This document shows positions 5,775-27,735 of a stretch of 64,000 nt of DNA, piece after piece. The DNA lies in contig NC_086108.1 in NCBI RefSeq assembly GCF_963921235.1, forward strand, positions 40,984,001 through 41,048,000. Reading direction: 5' to 3'. This stretch comes from Mobula hypostoma (taxonomy: Eukaryota). Made by a program: the position numbers and the translations under genes. Each line of letters opens with the position of its first letter. The stretch's first letter is position 1. Below the pieces are notes generated by a model. That model ran no database searches and was not told the DNA's origin. It worked only from the letters and a program-made list of their open reading frames with translations.

Positions 5775-5904
5775 GTGAAACACCTGGTTACCTCGGCTGC
5801 GTGAGTCTACGGAAGACAACCTCTAGCCCTGCCAAAATAGTGAAACACCTGGTTTCCTCGGCTGCGTAAGTCTACGGAAGACAACCTCTAGCCCCGCCAA
5901 AATA
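5775..5904. repeat. 65-bp tandem duplication (2 copies) at the LTR end
   Basis: gtgaaacacctggtt..cctcggctgcgt.agtctacggaagacaacctctagccc.gccaaaata occurs at 5775 and 5840. Confidence 0.9.
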
Positions 5905-14739: not shown

Positions 14740-15437
14740 CGCCAAGGAGGAGAGGCTGGTTTCTGAGGGAAGAGTTCACAACTCTTAGTAGGTATTTTGC
14801 AGTCATGGGCAGAGCAGTTATGATATCAAGCCATGACGCCTTGGGATAGAATGCGTTCTACTGGGGCATCCATAACAATTGGTGAGGGTCGAAGAGGTTA
14901 TGTCCGATTTCTTTAGCTTCCTGAGAAAGTAGAAGTTTTGGTGAGTTTCTTGGCCATGACATCAATATGATTGGACCAGGACAGACCATTGGTGATGTTC
15001 ACTCTTAGGAACTTGAAACTCCCAACCCTCTCCCATCAGCACCATTTATATCAACAGAAGCTTGTGCATTGACCCTTCCTAAAGTTCCTTTGTTTCACTG
15101 ACATTGAAAGAAGATAGTCATCATAACACTGTGTCACTATCTCCTTCCTGCAGTCCATCATTATTTGAAATATGGCCCAATATGGTGGTATCATCAGCAC
15201 ATTTGTGGATCGAGTTAGAGCAGAATCTGGCTCTGCAGTCATGACTCATCGGGAGGAGAATAGGAAGATGAGGATGCAGCCTCATGGGGTGCCAGTGTCA
15301 AGAAAAACTGTGGCAGCCGTCTTGATGCTTATGCTTACTGACTATGATCTGTTGGTCAGAAAGTGAAGGAGCCAGTTGCAAAGAGAGGTGTGGAGTCCCA
15401 GGTCTAAGAATTTTGTGACAAACTTGCTTCGAATTGT
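14740..15437 (-). mobile_element. Decayed Rex1/Babar RT fragment; its 3' UTR lies at ~13415-13825
   Basis: Reverse strand reads 'SKFVTKFLDLGL..LCNWLLHFLTNR' and 'FKFLRV', colinear with 6688-8556. Confidence 0.75.
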
Positions 15438-16042
15438 TGTGACTGTGATCAAAGTCACCGGAGAGACACTGAAGCTGAACATATAGAAGTTTTTATTCAG
15501 CACAACAAGTAGGTATCATTCTCTTCTCCGTGGATTGTCACCTTGTCGTGGTGGAGAAGCCTGTGATCCCGAGAGCAATGCCGTCTGGAGCTATGCTCCT
15601 GGTAGGGTCACCCATGGTGGTAAGGTCGAGGGTGAGGTCCCTGACAAAGAACAATCCAACCAAGATCTCAACGGTGGAATAGGAGGACGAAGTTACTTCG
15701 AACTCAACGGCTGTGAAGGCGGATGAAGGCTGCAACAAATCTATCAGCTCCAGTCGTCGTGGTTTCCATGCCATTGGAATCAGTTGGTTGATTTGTAAAG
15801 TATTGTGTGCTTCTTGGAGTGCAGCATCAAGTACACATTAAACAAATACATGCACAGGCGTCTTCACTCTGTGGGCCACTTCAGAACGAAGACGATCAAA
15901 GGATAGCCATGACGAGATATCATTCTGGGGACATTCTCAGTAGAGGCTCACAAACCCAAAAGTGTATCACATTTTTATATCTTTAAGATCAAAGGAAAGA
16001 AACTATAGGTGATTCAATCCAAATTCAATAGATACAATGACA
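15438..16042 (-). mobile_element. Solo LTR carrying an internal insertion
   Basis: TGTGAC...ATGACA termini, TTGT flanks (15434-15437 and 16043-16046), minus-strand TATAAAA (~15973-15979) and AATAAA (~15492-15497). Confidence 0.6.
15523..15917 (+). mobile_element. Short RTE-derived non-autonomous retroelement
   Basis: 9-bp TSD TATCATTCT (15514-15522 and 15918-15926); head 'caccttgtcgtggtggag...ctggtagggtcacccatgg' resembles RTE (Rex3/Expander-type) 5' UTRs. Confidence 0.7.
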
Positions 16043-16613
16043 TTGTTTACATCAATACTTTGGGTTGACAAATGGTTCCTTTGGTCTGTGGAGCAGCTTG
16101 TACTTTTAGCTTCAATTTACTGCTTAGGATATACAAAAAAAACGAAGACTAATTACAAGCTGCTGAATTTAATTGCATTTACAATAAGAACTGAAGCTTG
16201 GTTCTTGTTTGAATTAATATCTGCTATGTTTACATAACCCCAGAACACTCCCTAACATACCCTCCTCAGCCCCTGGACAGAAATCTGCCCCAGAAAGTGT
16301 CTGATTAAGTGGGGCAGTGAAAAATTGCCCTCTACTTCGAATCCCTTCTCCAATTACAAGCCCATGTGTACCTACATCTACACTATCTAACACCCCTAAT
16401 TGCCTATGTACATGTCTATGCAGAGACGGCAATCAAATTTTCCAGAAATTTGATCACATCTTCTTTGCGCCTTCAATCTCCAATAGATAGAACTGTAGTG
16501 GCTGTCAGTCATTACTCTGTGGGCAGGGTCACAGCAAGGTAACTTTTTACAGATTCACAAACAGCAGTTTACATTCCATGCCATAACTAAGGGTTATCAG
16601 AATGATCATAACA
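16043..16613 (-). repeat. Direct repeat A (putative truncated 3' LTR/U3 of the ERV)
   Basis: Colinear with 27150-27735 (e.g. cccctggacagaaatctg, ccagaaatttgatcacatc, gtagtggctgtcag, cattccatgcca); minus strand begins TGTTA. Confidence 0.6.
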
Positions 16614-16936
16614 ACCAGTCATTTTGATTGATCTACAGGAGGATTTGGAGTAGTGTCCATTCAAATAGCTGTAAGGATCTTGGCCTGGTGCACACCGTCC
16701 TGGACTGTCCTTTTGACCCCTGGCCCAACTAGTGGCTGCTTTCAGACGCTATGTGCGATTTCTTCTCTCTTTCTCAGTCTGCCTCGCCATCGAGGTTGTG
16801 GGACTGGCTGTTTCTGCCTTAACTCGGATCTCTTCCCATCTATTTTCCCCAGTCTATACAACTAACCATCTGCCTCCAAGAACCAGCCTTCATTACAAAG
16901 TATCATTACCATTATATCAAAAAAGGGTCTAGTGCT

Positions 16937-18088
16937 TTCCCAGTGTGTATGATGAATAAACTCTTCTCGAGCTTCCAGCCAGGTACAAATATAGATTGCA
17001 ACCAATGTTTCGATGACAAACTCTGCCATCTTTTCAGGGATGATGCCTGGGCATGTCTAGCCCAGTGGTATATATAGCCCCATCATCCGTCCCTCCTGAT
17101 TGGTTAGTCCTCATCCAATCAGGTTTCCACTCTCCCACCTTGTTTACAATCAAATTCCAGTTCTTACTTAAAGTGAGACCTTCATCTTTGTTAAAATTCT
17201 TTTTCTTAAATTCTTAAATTTCTTAAATTTAAATTCTTAAATTTCTTTTTCTTTTTCCACTGTGGGTCTCATCTGGCCTATATACACTGCTCCATATTCA
17301 CAGGGAATCCTGTAAATGTCTGCCACCCTGAGTCCCAGGTCATCTTGTGGATGGTATCAATCCAGTATTTCTTCAGAATCCTGGCCATCCATCCAGAAAC
17401 TGTGGAACTATAGGGAAGACAGGCGGTAGTGACAGGTTCCTCCTCGTTGTTAGATTTGCTGTTTTTTTTGGTTGGCCTTTTTAAGGGCCTGATTGATTTA
17501 CTTCATCTTGTGGCCATTCTGTAGGAATATTGTGCGTAATGGTGTTACTTCCTCATGGAGACTCTCCAGGTCCAAAATAGTTCCCACACAGTTAATCGAA
17601 GTAGGAAGACCCGCTGTATGTTGGGAGGTGTAATGGTGGATGTTACTGTTGAGGTATAAGTCCGTATGAGTGGGTTTCCAATAGGTGTCATGCCCAAGGC
17701 TACCATCTGGTTTCCGCCATATTAGAATGTCTAGGAACGTGAGGCAACCATTCTTGTCTATCTCCATCATAAATTGAATGTTTAGATGTATGCTGTTCAG
17801 ATAGCCGTGGAACTGTTGGAGCGCCTGGACTCCATGAGGCCACACTACGTAGATGTCATCGATGTATCTGAAGAAGCATTTGGGGCATCAGGGCGATGAA
17901 TTCAGCTCCGTCTACTCAAAGTCCTCAATGTAGAAATTAGCAATAGCTGGCAACAAGGGTAATCCCATGGCTATTCCATTTGTTTATTCATAGTAGTTCC
18001 CCTCATAGAGGAAGTATATTGATGTAAGGATGTATTCAAGAAGGTCAGTTGGTACCCTTGACCACAGGAGGACCAAAGTGTCCTTAAT
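16937..18088 (-). mobile_element. Penelope-like element (RT + GIY-YIG + pLTR), decayed; short inverted RT fragment follows at ~18089-18250 (+)
   Basis: 'GIAMGLPLLPAIANFY', 'FFRYIDDIYVVWPHG', 'LTFLDILI', 'YWKPTHTDLYL', 'IYRIPCEYGAVYIGQ'. Confidence 0.9.
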
Positions 18089-18335
18089 GAGAAATTGCTA
18101 ATTCCTACACTGTCTTTGAGGAGAGGGCGCTGATTTCATCAGTCTTATGCCCCAAATGCTTCTTCAGGTATGTTGATGACATCTTCGTAGTGTGGCTTCA
18201 TGGACTCAGGCATGCCAACAGTTCCATGCCCATCCGAACATCATACCATGAAGCGCAAATGAACTCGGGAGTCCTTGTGCAGGATTCCCTAAAGGTCAAT
18301 TTGCAGGTTGAGTCTGTGGTGAGGAAGGAAAATGC

Positions 18336-21100
18336 TATTAGTGAAACCTGGTTGCAGGAGGAGTGTGATTGGCAACTAAATATTCCTGGATTTCACTGCT
18401 TCAGGTGTGGTAGAAATGGAGGGGCAAGAGGGGGAGGTGTTGCATTATTTGTCAGAGAAAATATTACAGCTGTGCTTTGGCAGGATAGATTAGAGGACTA
18501 TTCTAGGGAGGCTATTTGGGTGGAATTGAGGAATGGGAAGGTGTAGTAACACTTATAGGGGTGTATTATAGACAACTTAATGGGGAGTGAGAATTGGAGG
18601 AGCAAAATTGTAAGGAGATAGCAGATATTTGTAGAAAGCACAAGGTTGTGATCGTGGGAGATTTTAATTCTCCACACATAGACTGGGAAGCCCATTCTGT
18701 AAAAGGGCTGGATGGTTTGGAGTTTGTAAAATGTGTGCAAGATAGTTTTTTGCAGCAATACATAGAGGTACCAACTGGAGAAGGGGCAGTGTTGGATCTC
18801 CTGTTAGGGAATGAGATAGGTCAGGTGACAGAGGTATGTGTTGGGGAGCACTTCGGGTCCAGTGATCACAATGCCATTAGTTTCAATATAATTATGGAGA
18901 AGGATAGGACTGGACCCAGGGTTGAGAGTTTTGATTGGAGAAAGGCTAACTCTGAGGAGGTGCGAAAGGATTTAGAAGGAGTGGATTGGGACAACTTGTT
19001 TTATGGGAAGGATGTAATAGAGAAATGGAGGTCATTTAAAGGTGACATTTTGAGAGTACAGAAACTTTATGTTCCTGTTAGGTTGAAAGGAAAGGTTAAA
19101 AGTTTGAGAGAGCCATGGTTTTCAAGGGATATTGGAAACTTGGTTCGGAAAAAGAGAGAGATCTACAATAAATACGGGCAACTTGGAGTAAATGAGGTGC
19201 TCGAGGAATTAAAGAATGTAAAAAGAATCTTAAGAAAGAAATTAGAAAAGCTATAAGAAGATATGAGGTTGCTTTGGCAAGTAAGGTGAAAATAAATTCA
19301 AAGGGTTTCTACAGTTATATTAATAACAAAAGGATAGTGAGGGATAAAATTGGTCCCTTAGGGAATCAGAGTGGACGGTTGTGTGCGGAGCCAAAGGAGA
19401 TGGGGGAGATTTTGAACAATTTATTTTCTTCAGTATTTACTACAAGTAGGGAAGTTATGGAAACTATGATGATTAAAGAAGAGGATGTACTGGCGCGTTT
19501 AAGGAATATAAAAGTGGATAAGTCTCCGGGTCCTGACATGATATTCCCTAGGACCTTGAGGGAAGTTAATGTAGAAATAGCAGGGGCTCTGACAGAAATA
19601 TTTCAAATGTCATTAGAAATGGGGGTGGTGCTGGAGGATTGCCATATTGCTCATGTTGTTCCATTGTTTAAAAAGGGTTCTAAGAATAAACCTAGCAATT
19701 ATTGGCCTGTGAGTTTTACGTCAGTGGTGGGTAAATTGATGGAAAGTATTCTTAGAGATGGTATATATAATTATCTGGATAGACAGGGTCTGATTAGGAA
19801 CAATCAACATGGATTTGCGCGTGGAAAGTCATGTTTGAGAAATCTTATTGAATTTTTTGATGAGGTTACTAGGAAAGTTGACAATGGTAAAGTGGTGGAT
19901 GTTGTCTATATGGACTTCAGTAAGGCCTTTGACAAGGTTCCCAATGGAAGGTTAGTTAGGAAGGTTCAATCGTTAGGTATTATATTGAAGTAGTAAAATG
20001 GATTCAGCAGTGGCTGGATGGGAGATGCCAGAGAGTAGTGGTGGATAACTGTTTGTCAGATTGGTGGCCGGTGACTAATGGTGTGCCTTAGGGATCTGTA
20101 CTGGGTCCAATGTTGTTTGTCATATATATTAATGATCTGGACGATGGGGTGGTAAATTGGATTAGGAAGTATGCAGATGATACTATCATAGGTGGAGTTG
20201 TGGATAATGAAGTAGATTTTCAAAGCTTGGAGCGAGATTTAGGCCAGTTAGAAGAGTGGACTGAAAGATGGCAGATGGAGTTCAACACTGATAAATGTGA
20301 GGTGCTACATTTTGGTAGGACTAATCAAAATAGGACATACATGGTAAATGGTAGGGCATTGAAGAACGTAGTAGAACAGAGGGATCTAGGAATAATGGTG
20401 CATAGTTCCCTGAAGGTGGAATCGCATGTGAATAGAGTGGTGAAGAAAGCTTTTGGTATGCTGGCCTTTATAAATCAGAACATTGAGTATAGGAGTTAGG
20501 ATGTAATGTTGAAATTGTAGAAGGCATTGGTAAGGCCAAATTTGGAGTATTGTGTACAGTTCTGGTCACCGAATTATAGGAAAGATGTCAACAAAATTGA
20601 GAGAATACAGAGAAGATTTACTAGAATGTTACCTGGGTTTCATCTCCTAAGTTATAGAGAAAGGTTGAACAAGTTGAATCTTCATTCTTTGGAGCATAGA
20701 AGGTTGAGGGGGGACTTGATAGAGGTATTAAAAATTATGAGGGGGATAGATAGGTAGAGTTGACGTGGATAGGCTTTTTCCATTGAGAGTGGGGGAGATT
20801 CAAACAAGAGGACGTGAGTTGAGAGTAAAAGGGCAAAAGTGTAGGGGTAACTTGAGGGGGAACTTCTTTACTCAGAGTGGTAGCTGTGTGGAACGAGCTT
20901 CCAGCAGAAGTGGTTGAGGCAGGTTCGATGTTGTCATTTAAAGTTAAATTAGACAGCTATATGGACGGGAAAGGAATGGAGGGTTATGGGCTGAGTGCAG
21001 GTCGGTGGGACTTGGTGAGAGTAAGAGTTTGGCACGGACTAGAAGGGCCGAGATGGCCTGTTTCTGTGCTCTAATTGTTATATAGTTATATTATATGGTT
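18336..21100 (+). mobile_element. CR1 LINE ORF2 (APE+RT, several stops/frameshifts) nested inside another CR1
   Basis: 'ISETWL', 'VGDFN', 'SSDHN', 'YMDFSKAFDKVP', 'KYADDT'; own 3' tail at ~21075-21100. Confidence 0.93.
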
Positions 21101-21756
21101 ACATGTTGGCATTCATTTCAAGAGGACATGAATATAAAAGAAAAGATGTAATGTTAAAACTTTATAAAGCAATGGTGAGGCCTCACTTGCAGCATTGCGA
21201 GTAGTTTTGGGCCCCTTATCTTTGAAAGGAGGTGTTGAAACTGGAGAGGGTTCAAAGGAGGTTCATGAAAATGATTCCAGGATTGAATGGCTTGTCACAT
21301 AAAGAGCATTTGATGGATCTGGGCCTGTATCCACTGGAATTCAGAAGATTGAGGGGTGACCTAATTGGAATCTATCGAATAGCTGAAAGGCCTTGACTGA
21401 GTAGATGTGGATGAGGAAAGGATGTTTCCTATGGTGGGAGAGTCTAAGGCATGAAGACACAGCCTCAGAAAAGAGGGGTGTCCTTTTAGAATAGAGATGA
21501 GGAGAAATTTCTTTAGCCAGAGTGGTGAATCCGTGGAATTCTTTGCCACGGGCAGCTGAGGAGGTCAAGTCCTTATGTATATTTAAGGCAGAGTTTGATA
21601 GATTCTTAATTAGTCAGGGCATGAAAGGATACGGGGAGAAGGCAGGAGATTGGGGCTGAGAGGAAAATTGTATCAGCCATGTTGAAATAGCAGAGCAGAC
21701 TCGATGGGCCAAATGGCTTAATTCTGCTCCTATATCTCATGGTCTTATGGTCTTAT
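21101..21756 (+). mobile_element. CR1 3' end; its upstream part is 18262-18335
   Basis: 'LGVLVQDSLKVNLQVESVVRK.NA' at 18262-18335 continues as 'MLAFISRG' at 21103; (ATGGTCTT)n tail. Confidence 0.85.
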
Positions 21757-21879
21757 TTGGTCTGTTTCTATCAGTTGCGGTCAGATGTGATGCAGCAGGC
21801 TGGTGTTCTCTGTGATGCTCTGTGATGACACTGTTAATGGGTGCACTTGTTTTGTCTGTGAGAGTGACAAGAAGGTGAA

Positions 21880-24800
21880 TCATACTGTTTATCCTGAGTC
21901 CAGTGTTTCACCGGCTGCCTCGCCAGGTCTGCCCGCAAACACAAGTGTCATTTGTCAGGAGCATCAGCTGTGGTCCTATTTACCTGGGAGCGAACCTTGC
22001 CTTTTCGGCAGCTCCCTTATCGTGACTTGGTTTCCCGGCTGTGGGAGGATTATCTTCTCTCCCTCTGGCTCTCTCTGATCAGCAATGTGTTGCTGTTGTT
22101 TTACACAGTCCTTTGGCACTTTAAGCTGGTTACAGGGCTCCCTTATATACCGGGTCATTTTATCCCTGTAATTTCAAGGTTCACCACAACCAGGAGTCCT
22201 CCCGCAAAGGAGTATCATCGCTGGCCCCGCCATGGGGGTCAGAACTAGCAAGCAGCTTGTGGATGCTTGCATTCTCAGCTGGATTCCTGGCTAAACATCA
22301 GCCCGTGTATTCCCGTCTCTGTTATAGTTTTAGCTAAGGCAGATTAGGTTGTTTGGTTCATCCTTTCTATCATTCCTGAGCTCTGAGGGAGTTAGGATAC
22401 ATGGAATCATTGTCGAATCCCCAACAGTCTGCACGTTTCCTTCATCACTTCCCCTGTGAAAAGCACTCCCTGATCCGAGTCACCCGGACTAGGGCTCCCC
22501 ACCTGGAGAGGATCCCCTGTGCTAAAATCCGTGCTGCTGTGCTGGTGGTGCAATCTCTCGTTAGGAAAACCTCTACCCATTGGCTGAAGTGGTCCATGAT
22601 CACCGAACTGTAGCTTCTCCCCTGCTTTTTGGCCGGGGCTCCATGAAGTCTGTCTGGTTGTTTTCACAGCCCCCTGGCTGTGGCTGGTTGGCCAATTGCA
22701 CCTTTTATGCTCTTACTTGGGTTATGCTGGGCACAAATGATACAACAGTGACAAAATTTCTCAACATACCTGCCCATACCTGGCCACTACTAGTCCCGCC
22801 AGAGAGTCATGGTCATGCTGTTTCTTCCAAGATGCATTACCCCATGATATACTGTAACTTCAGTAGTATCTGCCTAATACTAGGACCACAGTGACTCCTT
22901 CCTTCCCATGAGTCTGGCTCCCACCTGATCCCTCCCTTGTTCCCTCTCTCCTCCATTTCTCCTTCTCCCCTGCCTCCATCTTTTCAAATAGTTTTACTAA
23001 ACTGGCTCCAGTAGTTTCTTCTTGCACACTTGTAACAGCTTCTGCTGTCCATTTTGCCCTCATGCCCGCCCATCCATTCCCTTTCTGCTCCTCACTCTCC
23101 CCTTCCTGGTGAGCCTTTACTTTAATCACTGCAACCTTGACCAGCAGTTGTTGTATTGGGTGCCCATGCCAAATACCTGCCCCGTTGTGGGTACAAATCC
23201 TCATCGTGCCCACGCCATCAGATAATCATGTACCATCCCGGAGCATACCTGCTGTTTGTATATATATTTCCTCGACTGCCCTTACTGCAGCTCAGTGTGT
23301 TTATCAGAGCCACCAGTTCCACCACCAGAGCTGAGCAACCTCCTGGCAACACTCCTGCAGCTAATCTCTCATCTATTTCCTTCACCATGGTCCACCCAGT
23401 CAGTGGCTTCCCATCTATATACCTCCAAGACCCATCTATAAAAAGTTCCTCTGTTTCCCCTTTTAGAGTTGTTTCCATTCACACCAGTATCTTCCTCCTG
23501 CTCTACTTCCATTTTACACGAGTGTGCCTTCCTCTCTGTTAGGATAGTGCTTGCAGGGTTCATTCCGGTGTCCCTAACTATTGTTACTGACTTGCCTTTG
23601 GGGATGAGAACTGCCTCCCAGGCTACCCTTCTGCTGTTGGTGACTGCTCTCAGCCTCCCTGTGGTCAGGAGCTCTACAATGGTATAGGGTGTGTGTAGTA
23701 TGAGTTGTCCCATCACCCTAACAGGTTCACTTAATCACACAGCCCACGCTGTAGCCTTAAGCCCAATTTAACTTCTGCATCAAATGTGTGCTCTGGGTAC
23801 CGTGTACCCTACGCTGTAGGGTGATGTGCACCTCCACAAAAATGTAACTCACGCGTCGTGGCGACGCAGACTGCAACAACTGTGATTGGTCTGCTTGGTA
23901 GCATCGCATTTCCTCCTACACATTTCCGGTTGCTTTTCTCTGCCACGACTGTACACTGATGTGAAATAAATGGTTGGAGACCATGAACCAAATCGTCAAA
24001 TCTACCTGCGGATATCCGAAAATATTTGAAATGCATTTCCTCATCCATGTCTCTCATGAAGAAACTCAACACAGTGGCATAGAAACCCCACCGCCAACTG
24101 GCATTTTGGCGGTGAATTGCAGAGTGACGCAGGCACAACTACGCATGCTCGCTACGGCAAAGGGCTACGCAAAAGTATAGATCAGGCCTACGGCGTAGCC
24201 CGTACGCACATGTATAAATCAGCCTTAATGCTGCTACACAGTGGGGAAATCCTGCTACAACAGATGCATGCCTTGTTAAATAATATGCCACTGATCTTCT
24301 TACATCCCCATGGCCCTGCACCACCACTGCGTTGTAATACCCTCCCTCATTGCTGCAGTAAATGTGAAAGGGGTGAGTCACCTCAGGTAACCCTTGCACA
24401 GGTGCAGAGTTCAGGGCTTTCCTGATATCTGTAAAAGCCTTTTCCTCACCTGGCTACCATTTTTCCTCCCCCAGAGGGGGCTTCCCTCCTTCTATTAAGG
24501 CCTGTATCGGGGCCACTAGTGCTGAGAACCCTGGTATGAAAACATGGCAGTAACTGGATAGACCCATTTACTTTCCTCACTTCTCTTACGTTGAATGGGC
24601 GGGGCATGGAGCTGATTGCAGAACATTTATCATCTGACATGTCCTTCCCGCCCTGTGAAATCATGTATCGTAGAAACTGCATAGTTTTCCCCATCTGAGC
24701 CTTGTGTGGGCTGGTTTTAAACCCCTCATTCCACAATATTTCTAAAACACTGGCTATTGCCCCTAAGTGACTTACTTCTTCCTCCGAGGCAGTTAGTAGA

Positions 24801-25528
24801 TTATCTATGCATCGTAAAATGATCAAGTGGTAGGTTGTTAAATTGAGCTATCCCACAGTCTGTGCCATGACCTTATGAAAAAAGGCTGGGCTATTGTGGA
24901 AACCCTGGGGGAGTCTGATCCACATATACTGCTGCCCACCCAGGGTGAAGGCAAATCAATCTTGGGACTTAGCTGCTAATGGGAGCCCCAAAATCAGATC
25001 CTCCTCTATTTTGACTGGGTTTATCTTCACCCAGATACAGGCTTACTTGTGTCTAGCCAACAACTCTGGCAACTGCTGACAAAGTAACCCATGGATACCA
25101 TCCTGGCACCAGTCCCTGATGACTGGAGCAGCTACAGCTATACTGGTTAGATTGTGTACTATATTGGTTGTACGTTTTCGCTGCCCCTGACGTGTCCATG
25201 TTATTTCTCCATTTCTAGAATCTATAACAGCCCCTGCCTCCCTCAGCATGTCTATTCTGAAGATAGTGTCCTCATTATTCGGACAGACCCAGAATCACGC
25301 TGGGAGCTACACTCCACTGTTTATGAGTACCTGTGACTCACTTCTTTCTAACTTCACTGTTCTTCTCCCTTTATCAGTAATATAAATAGCCTCTCTGGTC
25401 ACTGGCAAAGGAAGGTCAGTTATCGATACTGATGCCCCTGTCCACTCACAGATCGTATTGCTGGCCTCCAACAATGCTGTTATGTACATCTGTTTGTCAG
25501 CAGTGCTGACAATGGAGCCCGCCACCAG
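21880..25528 (-). pseudogene. pol: ERV pro-pol remnant
   Basis: PR 'WTGASVS'; RT 'QYMWIRLPQGFHNSPAFFH', decayed YxDD as 'CIDNLL'; tether 'GLPEVTHPFHIY..VAYY', 'NPA'; RNase H 'LFIDGS..EL.AL..NIYTNSRYA..VKAH..GN'; IN 'HLG..WPGM..CIIC', 'DHFSQWVE', 'SDQG..FTG', 'PQSSGMIERMN'. Confidence 0.9.
23761..24224 (-). mobile_element. PIF/Harbinger non-autonomous deletion derivative inserted in ERV pol
   Basis: TTAA on both sides (contains the TWA target); imperfect TIRs GCCCAATTTAACTTCTGC / GGCTGATTTATACATGTGC; transposase remnant '[29 protein letters not shown]'. Confidence 0.8.
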
Positions 25529-26420
25529 CTATTTGACAGACCTCAAGGCTATCTTTACTATTTCTATAATCTTGTCAGCAGTCAGACTGGACAGAAAGGG
25601 ACTTTGGTCCTGTTGTGGTCTCTGCCTGCCTTCATGTCTTCTTTCCCTGACAGGACATTGTCTCCAGCCATGGCCTGGGAGACTACAGCTGTCACATACC
25701 ATCTCTTCTGCTCTTCTATGTCTAGTGTGGCAGTTCCTCGCTTATTGCCCTGGTTGGTGGCAAACAAAGCAAGTTCTCTACACCTGCTATTGCCATCTTT
25801 CGACCTGTCTTCCATCTCTTTCAATGTACCTCCCCAGCCCGTGAAGCTATTGTGGAGCACATGGATCCCACTGTTATCCTCAAGTCTAAAACTTTGTGGT
25901 GGGCTGAGTTCATCCCTTCCTTGAGCATTTTCAGAAAGACTGGGTCATCCCTCCCTGAATTTTCCAGTCCTGAGTGTTCCTCATAGGCCCAGTATTTTCA
26001 CTCTTCATCGTCCAGGGCAAGTTCATCAGCCTTCCGAGCAACTGACATTATCGTTCCCCAGTTACTGTGTCTTCCTCAAAGCCGCTGTCTCACTTCTTCC
26101 TTGAAGTTCCGATTTCTTTCCTCATTGCTGGCATTCCTACTTGTTGCCCATGTTCCATCCTGCATCGCTGGATTCATCCTGTCCCACGTACTTCTCAGGT
26201 ATTTAGATTTAACCAAGATGTGTACAGCGGGTACATCCGGTGGGTTTCCATTACTTCTTCTCACTTAGGCCAAAATTATTCATTGCCTCACTCAACAGTT
26301 TGGCTGCAGTGTTCTGCTTTTCCTCTGGGGAGAAGGGCTTGTGGATGGTGGTGCTGAGTCTGAGTGGCTGGCTGGGATGATTGAGGTTCTGAGCCTGTTT
26401 CTATAGGTGCCATTCTGACA
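25529..26420 (-). pseudogene. gag: ERV gag remnant (capsid-like region + two zinc knuckles)
   Basis: 'HKPFSPEEK'; 25655-25771 reads CFVCHQPGQ*ARNC...CDSCSLPGHGWRQC; frame ends in TAG at 25529-25531. Confidence 0.75.
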
Positions 26421-26429
26421 GACAGTACT

Positions 26430-26880
26430 GGGTAAAACCACTCCTGTTTATGGGTCTCTAAGGAGCTGCACATTGTGCAGATTTAAATACTGGAGGCCTC
26501 CCAAATTTTCCACATCTCACACAAGGAGCACACCACTACGTTCAGATCCATTCTGAACACAGCAGCCATGTACTAACAGAGAGAAAAGAAAAGAAACTGT
26601 CCTAAACAAGAGAAAGTCTGCAGATGCTGGAAATCCAAGCAACACACACAAAATGCTGGAGGAATTCAGCAGGTCAGACAGCATCTATGGGAAAAAGTAC
26701 GGTCAATATTTCGGGCCAAGACCCTTTGGCAGGATGTTTTACTTACTTACTTAGAACCTCTTCATGTACTTGTCCAAGCCTGTTCTCACTCTAGCCTATT
26801 GAACCAAAGCCAGACCCACTCTAAAATGGCCACTCAGCTAACAGCTTCTGTTTATTTATTGGCCCCACGTTGACTGCTAC
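26430..26880 (-). mobile_element. CR1 5' UTR/ORF1-start fragment in the ERV leader, itself containing a Penelope pLTR repeat (26604-26735)
   Basis: 'VVCSLCEMW...IC...QLLRD' matches the CR1 ORF1 zinc finger at ~47925-48050. Confidence 0.6.
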
Positions 26881-26922
26881 CCGCTGGGAAAAAAAGCCAA
26901 AAAGTATCCAAGCTCTTTTTAA

Positions 26923-26940
26923 CCTCATGCTGCATCACCA
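26923..26940 (-). promoter_or_regulatory. Putative primer-binding site
   Basis: TGGTGATGCAGCATGAGG directly after the putative 5' LTR; tRNA not confidently assignable (Ser-GCT or Arg-ACG nearest from memory, assuming CpG decay). Confidence 0.45.
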
Positions 26941-26943
26941 ACA

Positions 26944-27735
26944 TATGGCCTCTTACACTGATTGACACCCACTAGTATATAGATATGATAAGTACACAAA
27001 AATTATTGAGTGCCTATATCTGTGACCATGTTTGATATGGTAAGTGACAACATCCGTCTGGTCTGTCAGTTGAACTCAAGTCATAATGATGCAAATAATT
27101 TAGCCATGTTGTCAGGTTTGATGCAAGCTAATTAACACAAATCTATTTTCTTAATGTTTGGCTCTTGCATATGCAATTCCTTTGTCTGCGCAGCAGAATG
27201 TGCTTTTCACTTCAATTTATTGCTTGCAATTTACAGGGAAAAAAAACTGAAGGCTAAAAGCAAGCTTCCTGAACTTACTTACATTTACAGTAAGAACGAG
27301 AGCTTGGTTCGTGTTTGAATTAATATGTGCTACAAGCATGTAACTCCAGAATACTCCCTAACATGCCCTCTTCTTGGCCCCTGGACAGAAATCTGTACCA
27401 GGAAGGCCAAACTTAAAGGAGGATCTAATTAAACATGATAGCAAATAATGCCCCTCACATCCAATCCCTTCCCCAACCTCTGTGTACCTACATCTACGCT
27501 ATGTAACATCCCTAACTGGCTATCTACAAGTCTGTGCAGAGATGGCAATCAAACATTCCAGAAATTTGATCACATCCACTACTCCCCTTTAATCTCTGAT
27601 AGTTTAAAACTATCAGTAGTGGCTGTCAGGCATTACTCTGTGGACAGGGTCACAGCAAGTTCCCTCTGTTTCAGGTTCACAGACAACAGTTCGCATTCCA
27701 TGCCATGACAGAAGATTGATAGGAATTATAATACA
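26944..27735 (-). repeat. Direct repeat B (putative 5' LTR of the ERV)
   Basis: 27150-27735 homologous to 16043-16613; begins TG on the minus strand; abuts the PBS-like site. Confidence 0.55.

What the first reader, a model, noticed from the sequence alone, without database searches (positions are those of the whole stretch)
16043..27735. Decayed endogenous retrovirus with an atypical mix of features (possible class III or lokiretrovirus-like lineage)
Seen: minus-strand gag-pro-pol with two CCHC knuckles, RT 'LPQGFHNSPAFFH', a tether plus separate RNase H, HHCC-DDE integrase with a GPY/F-like tail, a PBS-like site and flanking direct repeats. Known: tether plus RNase H marks retroviruses rather than Ty3/Gypsy; gamma- and epsilonretroviruses usually have one knuckle and foamy viruses none. 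Inference: a deep-branching retrovirus in a probable cartilaginous fish, possibly an undescribed family.
Basis: partly seen in the sequence, partly recalled or inferred. Interest (0 to 1): 0.75.

Follow-up and report, generated by a model that had tools for sequence, protein, structure and literature searches.

The report
Envelope-less deep-branching fish retrovirus fossil
This is one dead, heavily interrupted copy of an old retrovirus family in a likely shark or ray genome; the family has no envelope gene, likely spread by copying itself inside cells, and belongs to a deep lineage already sampled in sharks, bony fish and turtles, so it is not a lokiretrovirus.

Summary
The gag-pro-pol anatomy is confirmed: two CCHC knuckles, an in-frame TAG, then protease, RT, tether, RNase H and integrase. 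The edges need correcting. The element runs 27721→15435 inside a LINE, with a 5-bp target duplication (4/5 match). No PBS survives. The upstream repeat is ~360 nt of 3'UTR plus PPT plus part of U3.

At least 125 related RT segments exist in the genome. Cleaner copies show YVDD, 5-bp TSDs and no env. An older subfamily, this copy's, has a tRNA-Pro PBS (LTR K2P 0.18-0.20); a younger one has tRNA-Leu (0.05-0.09). A gag-only deletion derivative also multiplied.

Trees place the family with shark and teleost ERVs inside canonical retroviruses. On RT+tether, AU tests reject loki (p=1.4e-4) and epsilon (6e-7). The exact sister (foamy, class I+II or snakehead retrovirus) is unresolved. A more distant metagenome relative carries a gamma-type env, so env was likely lost.

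Whale-shark and green-turtle ERVs with near-identical motifs were published in 2018, apparently in clade Huo (class III). Verdict: a new family of a known kind. The scan held no look-alike by sequence; a different shark ERV elsewhere was likewise first called loki-like and rejected.

The parts
27722..27726 (-). Upstream copy of the 5-bp target-site duplication (ATTCC), inside a LINE RT fragment
   Evidence: both flanks map collinearly on one LINE in 8 of 14 LINE loci; the empty site in LINE copies reads AATTCCAAGC
27364..27721 (-). Extra ~360 nt of the family's 3'UTR plus polypurine tract in front of the upstream LTR (abnormal left end)
26974..27363 (-). U3 part of the upstream LTR (starts TGTTAG); R, U5 and PBS missing
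26454..26973 (.). Fragment of an unrelated old repeat, itself interrupted by a 130-nt high-copy element (26604-26734); occupies the place of R/U5/PBS/leader
25529..26453 (-). gag remnant: capsid region, two CCHC knuckles (25771-25730, 25696-25655), TAG stop at 25531-25529
   Evidence: zf-CCHC in cleaner copies
25000..25528 (-). Protease, in frame after the gag TAG; active site decayed
24226..24999 (-). RT (about 97 codons deleted at 24995/24993; LPQGFHNSP at 24913; YxDD decayed) and first part of the tether
23761..24224 (.). Nested DNA-transposon remnant in the tether, TTAA on both sides, imperfect terminal inverted repeats; Harbinger-like by a recalled peptide motif (no Pfam hit)
22900..23760 (-). 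Rest of the tether and the RNase H (gamma/epsilon/SnRV type)
21759..22899 (-). Integrase (HHCC, D-D-E, C-terminal tail) and start of the 3'UTR
16917..21758 (+). Nested inserts, not env: Penelope-like pieces (~16917-18250, label from recalled motifs), an APE+RT LINE of CR1 type (~18250-21094) and the 3' end of a second LINE (21103-21758)
   Evidence: relatives have only 60-100 nt between the two junctions
16258..16916 (-). 3'UTR without env, ending in the polypurine tract
15435..16257 (-). 3' LTR (TGTTAG...CACAACA), with a 395-nt insert at 15523-15918 and a deletion near 16082
15430..15434 (-). Downstream copy of the target-site duplication (ATTCG), followed by the continuation of the host LINE

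Best explanation
The stretch 27721-15435 is one dead copy of a multicopy, envelope-less endogenous retrovirus family of the deep 'class III' grade, which likely lost env and then multiplied by retrotransposition inside germ cells.

Shown: LTR-gag-TAG-pro-RT-tether-RNase H-IN-3'UTR-PPT-LTR; 5-bp target duplications; tRNA-Pro (older subfamily) or tRNA-Leu (younger) primer sites in other copies; no env; a repeated gag-only deletion form.

Inferred: Pol was made by read-through of the gag amber codon; Gag formed intracellular particles; the gag-only form was mobilised in trans; the ancestor was an infectious virus with a gamma-type env, like the metagenome relatives L139/L140. This copy landed in a LINE, likely well over 100 million years ago, and later collected five or more insertions and several deletions.
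For: Copies: 126 of 150 listed RT matches (self included) are 42% or more identical; only 150 of 7691 candidates were scored.

No env: of 10 copies chosen by RT score alone, 7 run from the integrase through a 3'UTR to the LTR with no env; the other 3 are cut earlier. 35 of 40 scored matches cover nearly the whole IN-to-3'UTR junction (this search favours such copies). Four env queries gave no hit at E<1 inside any family copy or the window; the only hit lies 7.7 kb outside a copy. In the 30 best gamma-type env loci of the genome, neighbouring integrases are only 26-49% identical to the family's in the main alignments, and no LTR of the family is seen.

PBS: 6 of 6 younger copies match tRNA-Leu with 0-1 mismatches; 4 of 4 older copies match tRNA-Pro with 3-5 mismatches. 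TSD: exactly 5 bp in 11 of 13 solo LTRs with clean edges; 12 of 30 loci were not parsed. The gag TAG plus its context is found in 6 of 14 copies scanned and in the window.

Deleted form: 7 of 10 loci mapped show the same two gaps (L018 ~3940 to ~5800-5900, and ~5990 to ~6840 or further where decayed) while keeping gag.

Trees: family+kin clade 100/95; kin clade 100/99; canonical retroviruses without loki 100/96 and 100/99. Env in kin: TLV_coat E 1e-20.
Against: The env-bearing relatives are only about 37% identical in Pol, so env loss is inferred across a distance, and an env-bearing minority of the family could have been missed. Read-through and trans-mobilisation were not tested. The sister group changes with the data: foamy on the RT core (97/85), class I+II on RT+tether (85/95). 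A clade with SnRV plus two ERV-L/S-like rows was rejected (p=0.004), so 'class III' here is a grade label, not a shown clade. The long-alignment trees and AU tests used intact kin proteins as stand-ins for the family.
Confidence: 0.82

Rival explanations
1. The family is a stem foamy-like virus (clade Tu) that kept an orthoretroviral Gag and read-through.
For: RT-core tree: family+kin sister to foamy+FLERV-like rows, 97/85. Best PDB sequence hits are foamy RTs (198 bits against 169 for the best Gag-Pol entry and 166 for the gammaretroviral p80 RTs).
Against: The branch is short (0.068). RT+tether moves the clade next to class I+II, and AU gives p=0.037 against foamy. Kin RNase H scores 13-19 bits to foamy against 70-115 to SnRV/gamma/epsilon. 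Fish foamy-like ERVs lack Cys-His boxes and mostly use tRNA-Lys (PMC5210030 passages).
Confidence: 0.1
2. The family is a lokiretrovirus or Odin-like element (Odin elements also have a dual RNase H and no env).
For: Dual RNase H and no env match the Odin description (PMC9040795 passages). On the RT core alone, AU does not formally reject a clade with loki (p=0.064).
Against: Loki RTs carry CPFGY (71 hits, 0 for LPQGFHNSP, in the held part of the supplement). Trees separate it at 100/96 and 100/99. AU on RT+tether gives p=1.4e-4. RNase H scores 25-26 bits to loki. The loki paper lists 0 of 3 chondrichthyan genomes in the row seen. No Odin sequence was in my trees.
Confidence: 0.02
3. The family is an epsilon-like class I ERV.
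For: RNase H and IN are nearest to gamma/epsilon types; amber read-through; tRNA-Pro PBS; gamma-type env in kin.
Against: It is excluded from the gamma+epsilon+alpha/beta/delta clade at 100/99 and 100/100. AU p=6e-7 for a clade with the 8 epsilon rows, although those rows are not one clade in the free tree either.
Confidence: 0.04
4. On the odd left end only: the upstream repeat is the 3' end of a second, tandem copy whose LTR and interior were later deleted. The alternative is a 5' LTR lengthened by plus-strand priming upstream of the normal PPT.
For: The junction has a 6/7-nt microhomology between the target duplication and the 3'UTR. The two repeats are no closer to each other (K2P 0.22) than to other copies (means 0.217 and 0.223, n=24).
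Against: The target duplication sits right at the junction, and the family sequence there begins with TG, as an integrase end would. Shared rare variants (6, against 0-7 and 1-8 with other copies) do not decide.
Confidence: 0.45

Closest known systems
rh_ty_ERV4 (whale shark) and ch_my_ERV12 (green turtle) of Xu et al. 2018, PMC6001957; apparently clade Huo
   Same: By eye on the supplement text: the protease start of rh_ty_ERV4 agrees with copy L018 at 21 of 26 residues, and both share the RT motifs (RLTIDYT, xPQGFHNSP, YVDD). rh_ty_ERV4 also has an in-frame gag stop.
   Different: I could not align them or put them in a tree. The clade is inferred from tip order in S2 Fig and from the statement that Tu has no reptile members. 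In the parts read, the paper gives no anatomy (env status, PBS, knuckles).
Snakehead retrovirus (SnRV) and CmiERV lineage I of the elephant shark (PMC4422223)
   Same: Best viral-genome hit of the RT (39%, E 6e-66; identity). gag-stop-pol in one frame, CCHC Gag, YVDD, the same RNase H group. A clade with it is not rejected (p=0.25-0.26).
   Different: SnRV has one knuckle, a large env, accessory ORFs and a longer Pol, and it never grouped with the family in my free trees.
ERV-L / MaLR and XtERV-S (class III; PMC8278194 passages)
   Same: Works like ERV-L: env-less amplification with a non-autonomous derivative (ERV-L/MaLR biology recalled). The younger subfamily has a tRNA-Leu PBS. XtERV-S shows that class III pol with a class I env and gag-pol stop suppression is known.
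   Different: ERV-L and XtERV-S have YIDD and no Cys-His box, and XtERV-S has a dUTPase. This family has YVDD, two knuckles and no dUTPase, and sits on a separate RT branch.
Foamy viruses and fish/shark FLERVs (PMC5210030, PMC5512871)
   Same: Nearest solved RT structures; sister group in the RT-core tree.
   Different: Cys-His boxes present, pol in the gag frame, Pro/Leu rather than Lys primer, different RNase H and IN.
Cyprinid ERVi elements (Grar.ERVi.1, Rrut.ERVi.3; PMC10435555 supplement)
   Same: By eye, their RT is nearly the same as the Pimephales protein P0005, which falls in the family's wider clade. The lineage has recently inserted members in teleosts.
   Different: About 49% identical in RT to this family; env status not read.

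Membership tests
Retroviridae (canonical) | Tether plus separate RNase H; RT inside the canonical retrovirus clade | tested here: met
   100/96; 100/99
Retroviridae (canonical) | env gene | tested here: not met
   Absent in the window and in all family copies examined; present in clade relatives L139/L140, so likely a secondary loss
Ty3/Gypsy | RT within Metaviridae; single RNase H | tested here: not met
Lokiretrovirus | RT groups with loki | tested here: not met
   AU p=1.4e-4, p=0.064 on the RT core. The loki rows P0323/P0326 were labelled by the CPFGY motif
Lokiretrovirus | Env like Mononegavirales fusion proteins | tested here: not met
   No env; kin env is TLV_coat
Lokiretrovirus | RNase H of group I (loki+foamy) | tested here: not met
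Odin retrotransposons | RT sister to loki | not tested
   No Odin sequence was obtained; exclusion rests on the family being inside canonical retroviruses
Foamy / FLERV (clade Tu) | RT groups with foamy viruses | tested here: inconclusive
   97/85 on the RT core; not on RT+tether, AU p=0.037
Foamy / FLERV (clade Tu) | No Cys-His box; tRNA-Lys PBS; pol in a separate frame | tested here: not met
   features from PMC5210030 and PMC8278194 passages
Epsilon-like class I (clade Mu) | RT within gamma+epsilon | tested here: not met
Class III / clade Huo (SnRV-, ERV-L-related) | RT outside class I and II and outside foamy proper | tested here: met
Class III / clade Huo (SnRV-, ERV-L-related) | One clade with SnRV and ERV-L | tested here: inconclusive
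   With SnRV alone p=0.26 and 0.25; with SnRV plus 2 ERV-L/S-like rows p=0.004 (sparse sampling, simple model); published look-alikes appear in Huo
ERV-L | YIDD, dUTPase, no Cys-His box | tested here: not met
   YVDD in 8 of 14 copies scanned, YVDN in 1, no match in 5; no dUTPase in kin Pol P0118, which is collinear with the window's pol
Existing Repbase/Dfam entry | Sequence match to a named repeat family | not testable with these tools

The most novel reading that the evidence does not exclude
The family belongs to an unnamed, well-supported deep retrovirus clade of sharks, rays, teleosts and likely turtles. The clade is neither SnRV/ERV-L nor foamy but the sister of class I+II retroviruses, and it keeps an ancestral-looking plan (CCHC Gag, amber read-through, gamma-type env). 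In this cartilaginous fish it lost env, swapped its primer from tRNA-Pro to tRNA-Leu and spawned a gag-only parasite, repeating the mammalian ERV-L/MaLR story independently and probably earlier.
Probability: 0.35. Interest if true: 0.5.

Novelty: new member of a known kind. Interest (0 to 1): 0.3.

Why it matters
The locus itself is ordinary decayed repeat DNA. The family is of modest value to paleovirologists. It gives anatomy (knuckles, read-through stop, primer switch, env loss, non-autonomous derivative, two waves of activity) to a deep lineage so far represented mainly by tree tips. It is also a concrete candidate for the abundant, low-diversity clade III ERVs reported in cartilaginous fish (bioRxiv 2023.10.17.562709 passage). 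If its place as sister of class I+II held, clade Huo would be a grade and would need splitting.

Tried and rejected
An open frame at 16862-17056 looked like an env remnant; it lies in the inserted block that relatives lack and has no Pfam or env hit. My first guess for the younger LTR start (after a G run at L018:7868) was wrong; solo LTRs show that it starts TGTTAG about 100 nt later. I first read the upstream repeat as a plain tandem neighbour; the target duplication in the LINE weakened that, and the point stays open.

A single-protein scan of viral contigs found nothing; the alignment scan did. The fold search of the RT model against viral structures only confirmed an RT fold and did not rank lineages. 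The FastTree of 338 RTs was too large to read in full. The 89-row careful tree did not finish; its quick tree agreed. One Pfam query of copy L018 was in the wrong frame and is uninformative. One search was also off frame.

Foamy and alpha/beta/delta RNase H segments scored under the 25-bit cut and were left out of the RNase H tree. Rows labelled FLERV, ERV-L-like, epsilon (P ids), alpha/beta/delta and Gypsy were labelled by motif, Pfam content, genome size or tree position. Only SnRV, MoMLV, REV and four foamy viruses were named by look-up.

Paper searches for 'endogenous retrovirus + env-less + shark', '+ elasmobranch', and 'ERV4/class III/snakehead/zinc knuckle' listed nothing that describes this family. 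Subscription papers and Repbase/Dfam were not searchable. LTR ages use published rates that differ twofold and are not CpG-corrected.

Full report
OBSERVATION. The minus strand carries gag-pro-pol as described. Six-frame reading and motif mapping give two CCHC knuckles (25771-25730, 25696-25655), a TAG at 25531-25529 in frame with the protease, the RT motif at 24913-24875, RNase H acidic residues at 23445-23242, and integrase HHCC and D-D-E at 22849-22356. Pfam finds RVT_1, the tether, RNase_H, Integrase_H2C2 and rve. The copy is dead: 8 stops lie in the 25777-24446 frame, there are several frame changes, about 97 RT codons are deleted, and the YxDD is decayed.

EDGES. Relatives in the same genome (G000, 3.48 Gb) fix the boundaries. 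The LTR starts TGTTAG after a purine tract and ends CACAACA. The window's 3' LTR is 16257-15435, split by an insert at 15523-15918. The upstream repeat begins at 27721 with about 360 nt of 3'UTR and the PPT before U3 starts at 27363, and it stops at 26974. Three of three measurable older copies with two LTRs start normally. An unrelated repeat fills 26973-26454, so no PBS is left; the best matches to the host's tRNA-Leu and tRNA-Pro ends are at chance level. Both outer flanks map collinearly on one LINE in 8 of 14 LINE loci, with ATTCC/ATTCG as the target duplication. The family's duplication is 5 bp in 11 of 13 solo LTRs with clean edges (12 of 30 loci were not parsed). The odd left end is either a 5' LTR lengthened by upstream plus-strand priming or the remnant of a tandem copy; searches do not decide.

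INSERTS. The block 16917-21758 is absent from relatives. It holds LINE pieces with endonuclease and RT domains and Penelope-like pieces (label recalled). A DNA-transposon remnant sits in the tether at 23761-24224 (the Harbinger label is recalled).

THE FAMILY. Of 150 listed RT matches, 126 including self are 42% or more identical; 7691 candidates existed and 150 were scored, so this is a floor. Two subfamilies show up. The older one, with this copy's LTR, has LTR-pair K2P of 0.178-0.195 in 3 copies and a tRNA-Pro PBS in 4 of 4 copies (3-5 mismatches). The younger has K2P 0.053-0.093 in 3 copies and a tRNA-Leu PBS in 6 of 6 (0-1 mismatches). [quoted passage not shown] The rate in PMC4422223 (2.2e-10) would more than double these figures, so the ages are rough.

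NO ENV. Seven of ten copies picked by RT score run from IN through about 800 nt to the LTR; three are cut short. Env queries find nothing inside family copies. The genome's 30 best gamma-type env loci sit beside other integrases. Seven of ten mapped older loci share two large deletions that remove most of pol but keep gag, the pattern of a non-autonomous derivative copied in trans (inference).

PLACEMENT. The closest proteins are from unnamed assemblies and from Mustelus, Heterodontus and Pimephales (47-60% in RT). Reference viruses were fetched from viral contigs; SnRV, MoMLV, REV and four foamy viruses were named by look-up. The RT-core tree (54 rows, 239 columns, mixture model) gives family+kin 100/95, canonical retroviruses without loki 100/96, gamma+epsilon+alpha/beta/delta without the family 100/99, and family+kin beside foamy at 97/85 on a very short branch. 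The RT+tether tree (44 rows, 433 columns, LG+G4, intact kin as stand-ins) gives the kin clade 100/99 beside class I+II at 85/95.

AU tests on RT+tether: loki p=1.4e-4, foamy 0.037, SnRV 0.25, epsilon 6e-7, SnRV+ERV-L-like 0.004. On the RT core: SnRV 0.26, loki 0.064. RNase H is of the gamma/epsilon/SnRV type and IN is nearest class I. Two metagenome relatives in the wider clade have gag with one knuckle, TAG, pol and (L139/L140) a gamma-type env; two others (L137/L138) show no env within their contigs. So the element is a canonical retrovirus of a deep lineage whose sister group is unresolved.

MECHANISM. Shown: the layout, the primer sites, the duplications, the lack of env, the repeated deletion form. 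Inferred from retroviral biology: LTR transcription, Gag-Pol by amber read-through, tRNA-primed reverse transcription in intracellular particles, and integration with a 5-bp duplication. PMC10435555 (passage) lists retrotransposition in cis and complementation in trans as the routes open to env-less and defective ERVs.

WHAT IS KNOWN. Xu et al. 2018 (PMC6001957; parts 1-2, passages, S2 Fig text and supplement passages read) include rh_ty_ERV4 and ch_my_ERV12, whose motifs match this family by eye. In the S2 Fig tip list they stand in a block with turtle ERVs just before the foamy block, and the text says Tu has no reptile members, so I infer clade Huo; the figure itself was not visible. PMC4422223 (first part read) reports an SnRV-like lineage in the elephant shark. 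PMC7947760 (parts 1-2, supplement passages) defines lokiretroviruses, PMC9040795 (passages) Odin, PMC5210030 and PMC5512871 (passages, one section) foamy-like ERVs, and PMC8278194 (passages) a class III ERV with a class I env. [quoted passage not shown] I found no description of this family's anatomy, but Repbase and Dfam could not be checked.

VERDICT. A real feature, largely as seen, with corrected edges and no PBS. It is a new family of a known kind (class III grade, env-less), not loki-like. Interest 0.3; 0.5 if the lineage proves to be a separate deep clade.

Noticed in passing
G000 loci L061-L067, L075: A repeated gag-only derivative of the older subfamily with two shared pol deletions; L071 is a still shorter form with two LTRs and a small interior.
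   Followed up: partly
L139:4254-5825 and L140: Metagenome contigs of a relative with intact pol and a gamma-type env; the gag of L140 seems to lack most of the capsid region (370 aa).
   Followed up: partly
Proteins P0011/P0127: An RT that groups with foamy viruses (96/91) and has a weak spumavirus protease match (E 9e-4), but an RNase H near SnRV; a possible foamy stem lineage.
   Followed up: partly
Proteins P0210 and P0017 (Xenopus tropicalis): Canonical-type RT with an RNase H that groups with loki; P0210's integrase also pairs with loki (SH-aLRT 99), suggesting domain exchange or retained ancestral domains.
   Followed up: no
L072 (G000:C21:82338000-82347999): An older-subfamily copy with part of its pol duplicated in inverted orientation just beyond the 3' LTR region.
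   Followed up: no
window 17788-18246: Two Penelope-like RT pieces lie as an inverted pair (80-84% complementary arms) inside the large insert.
   Followed up: no
window 15523-15918: A 395-nt insert in the 3' LTR, flanked by a short duplication; its start resembles an RTE-type 5' end (recalled).
   Followed up: no
L201-L230: At least 82 gamma-type env matches in the genome; those with an integrase in view belong to other ERV lineages.
   Followed up: partly
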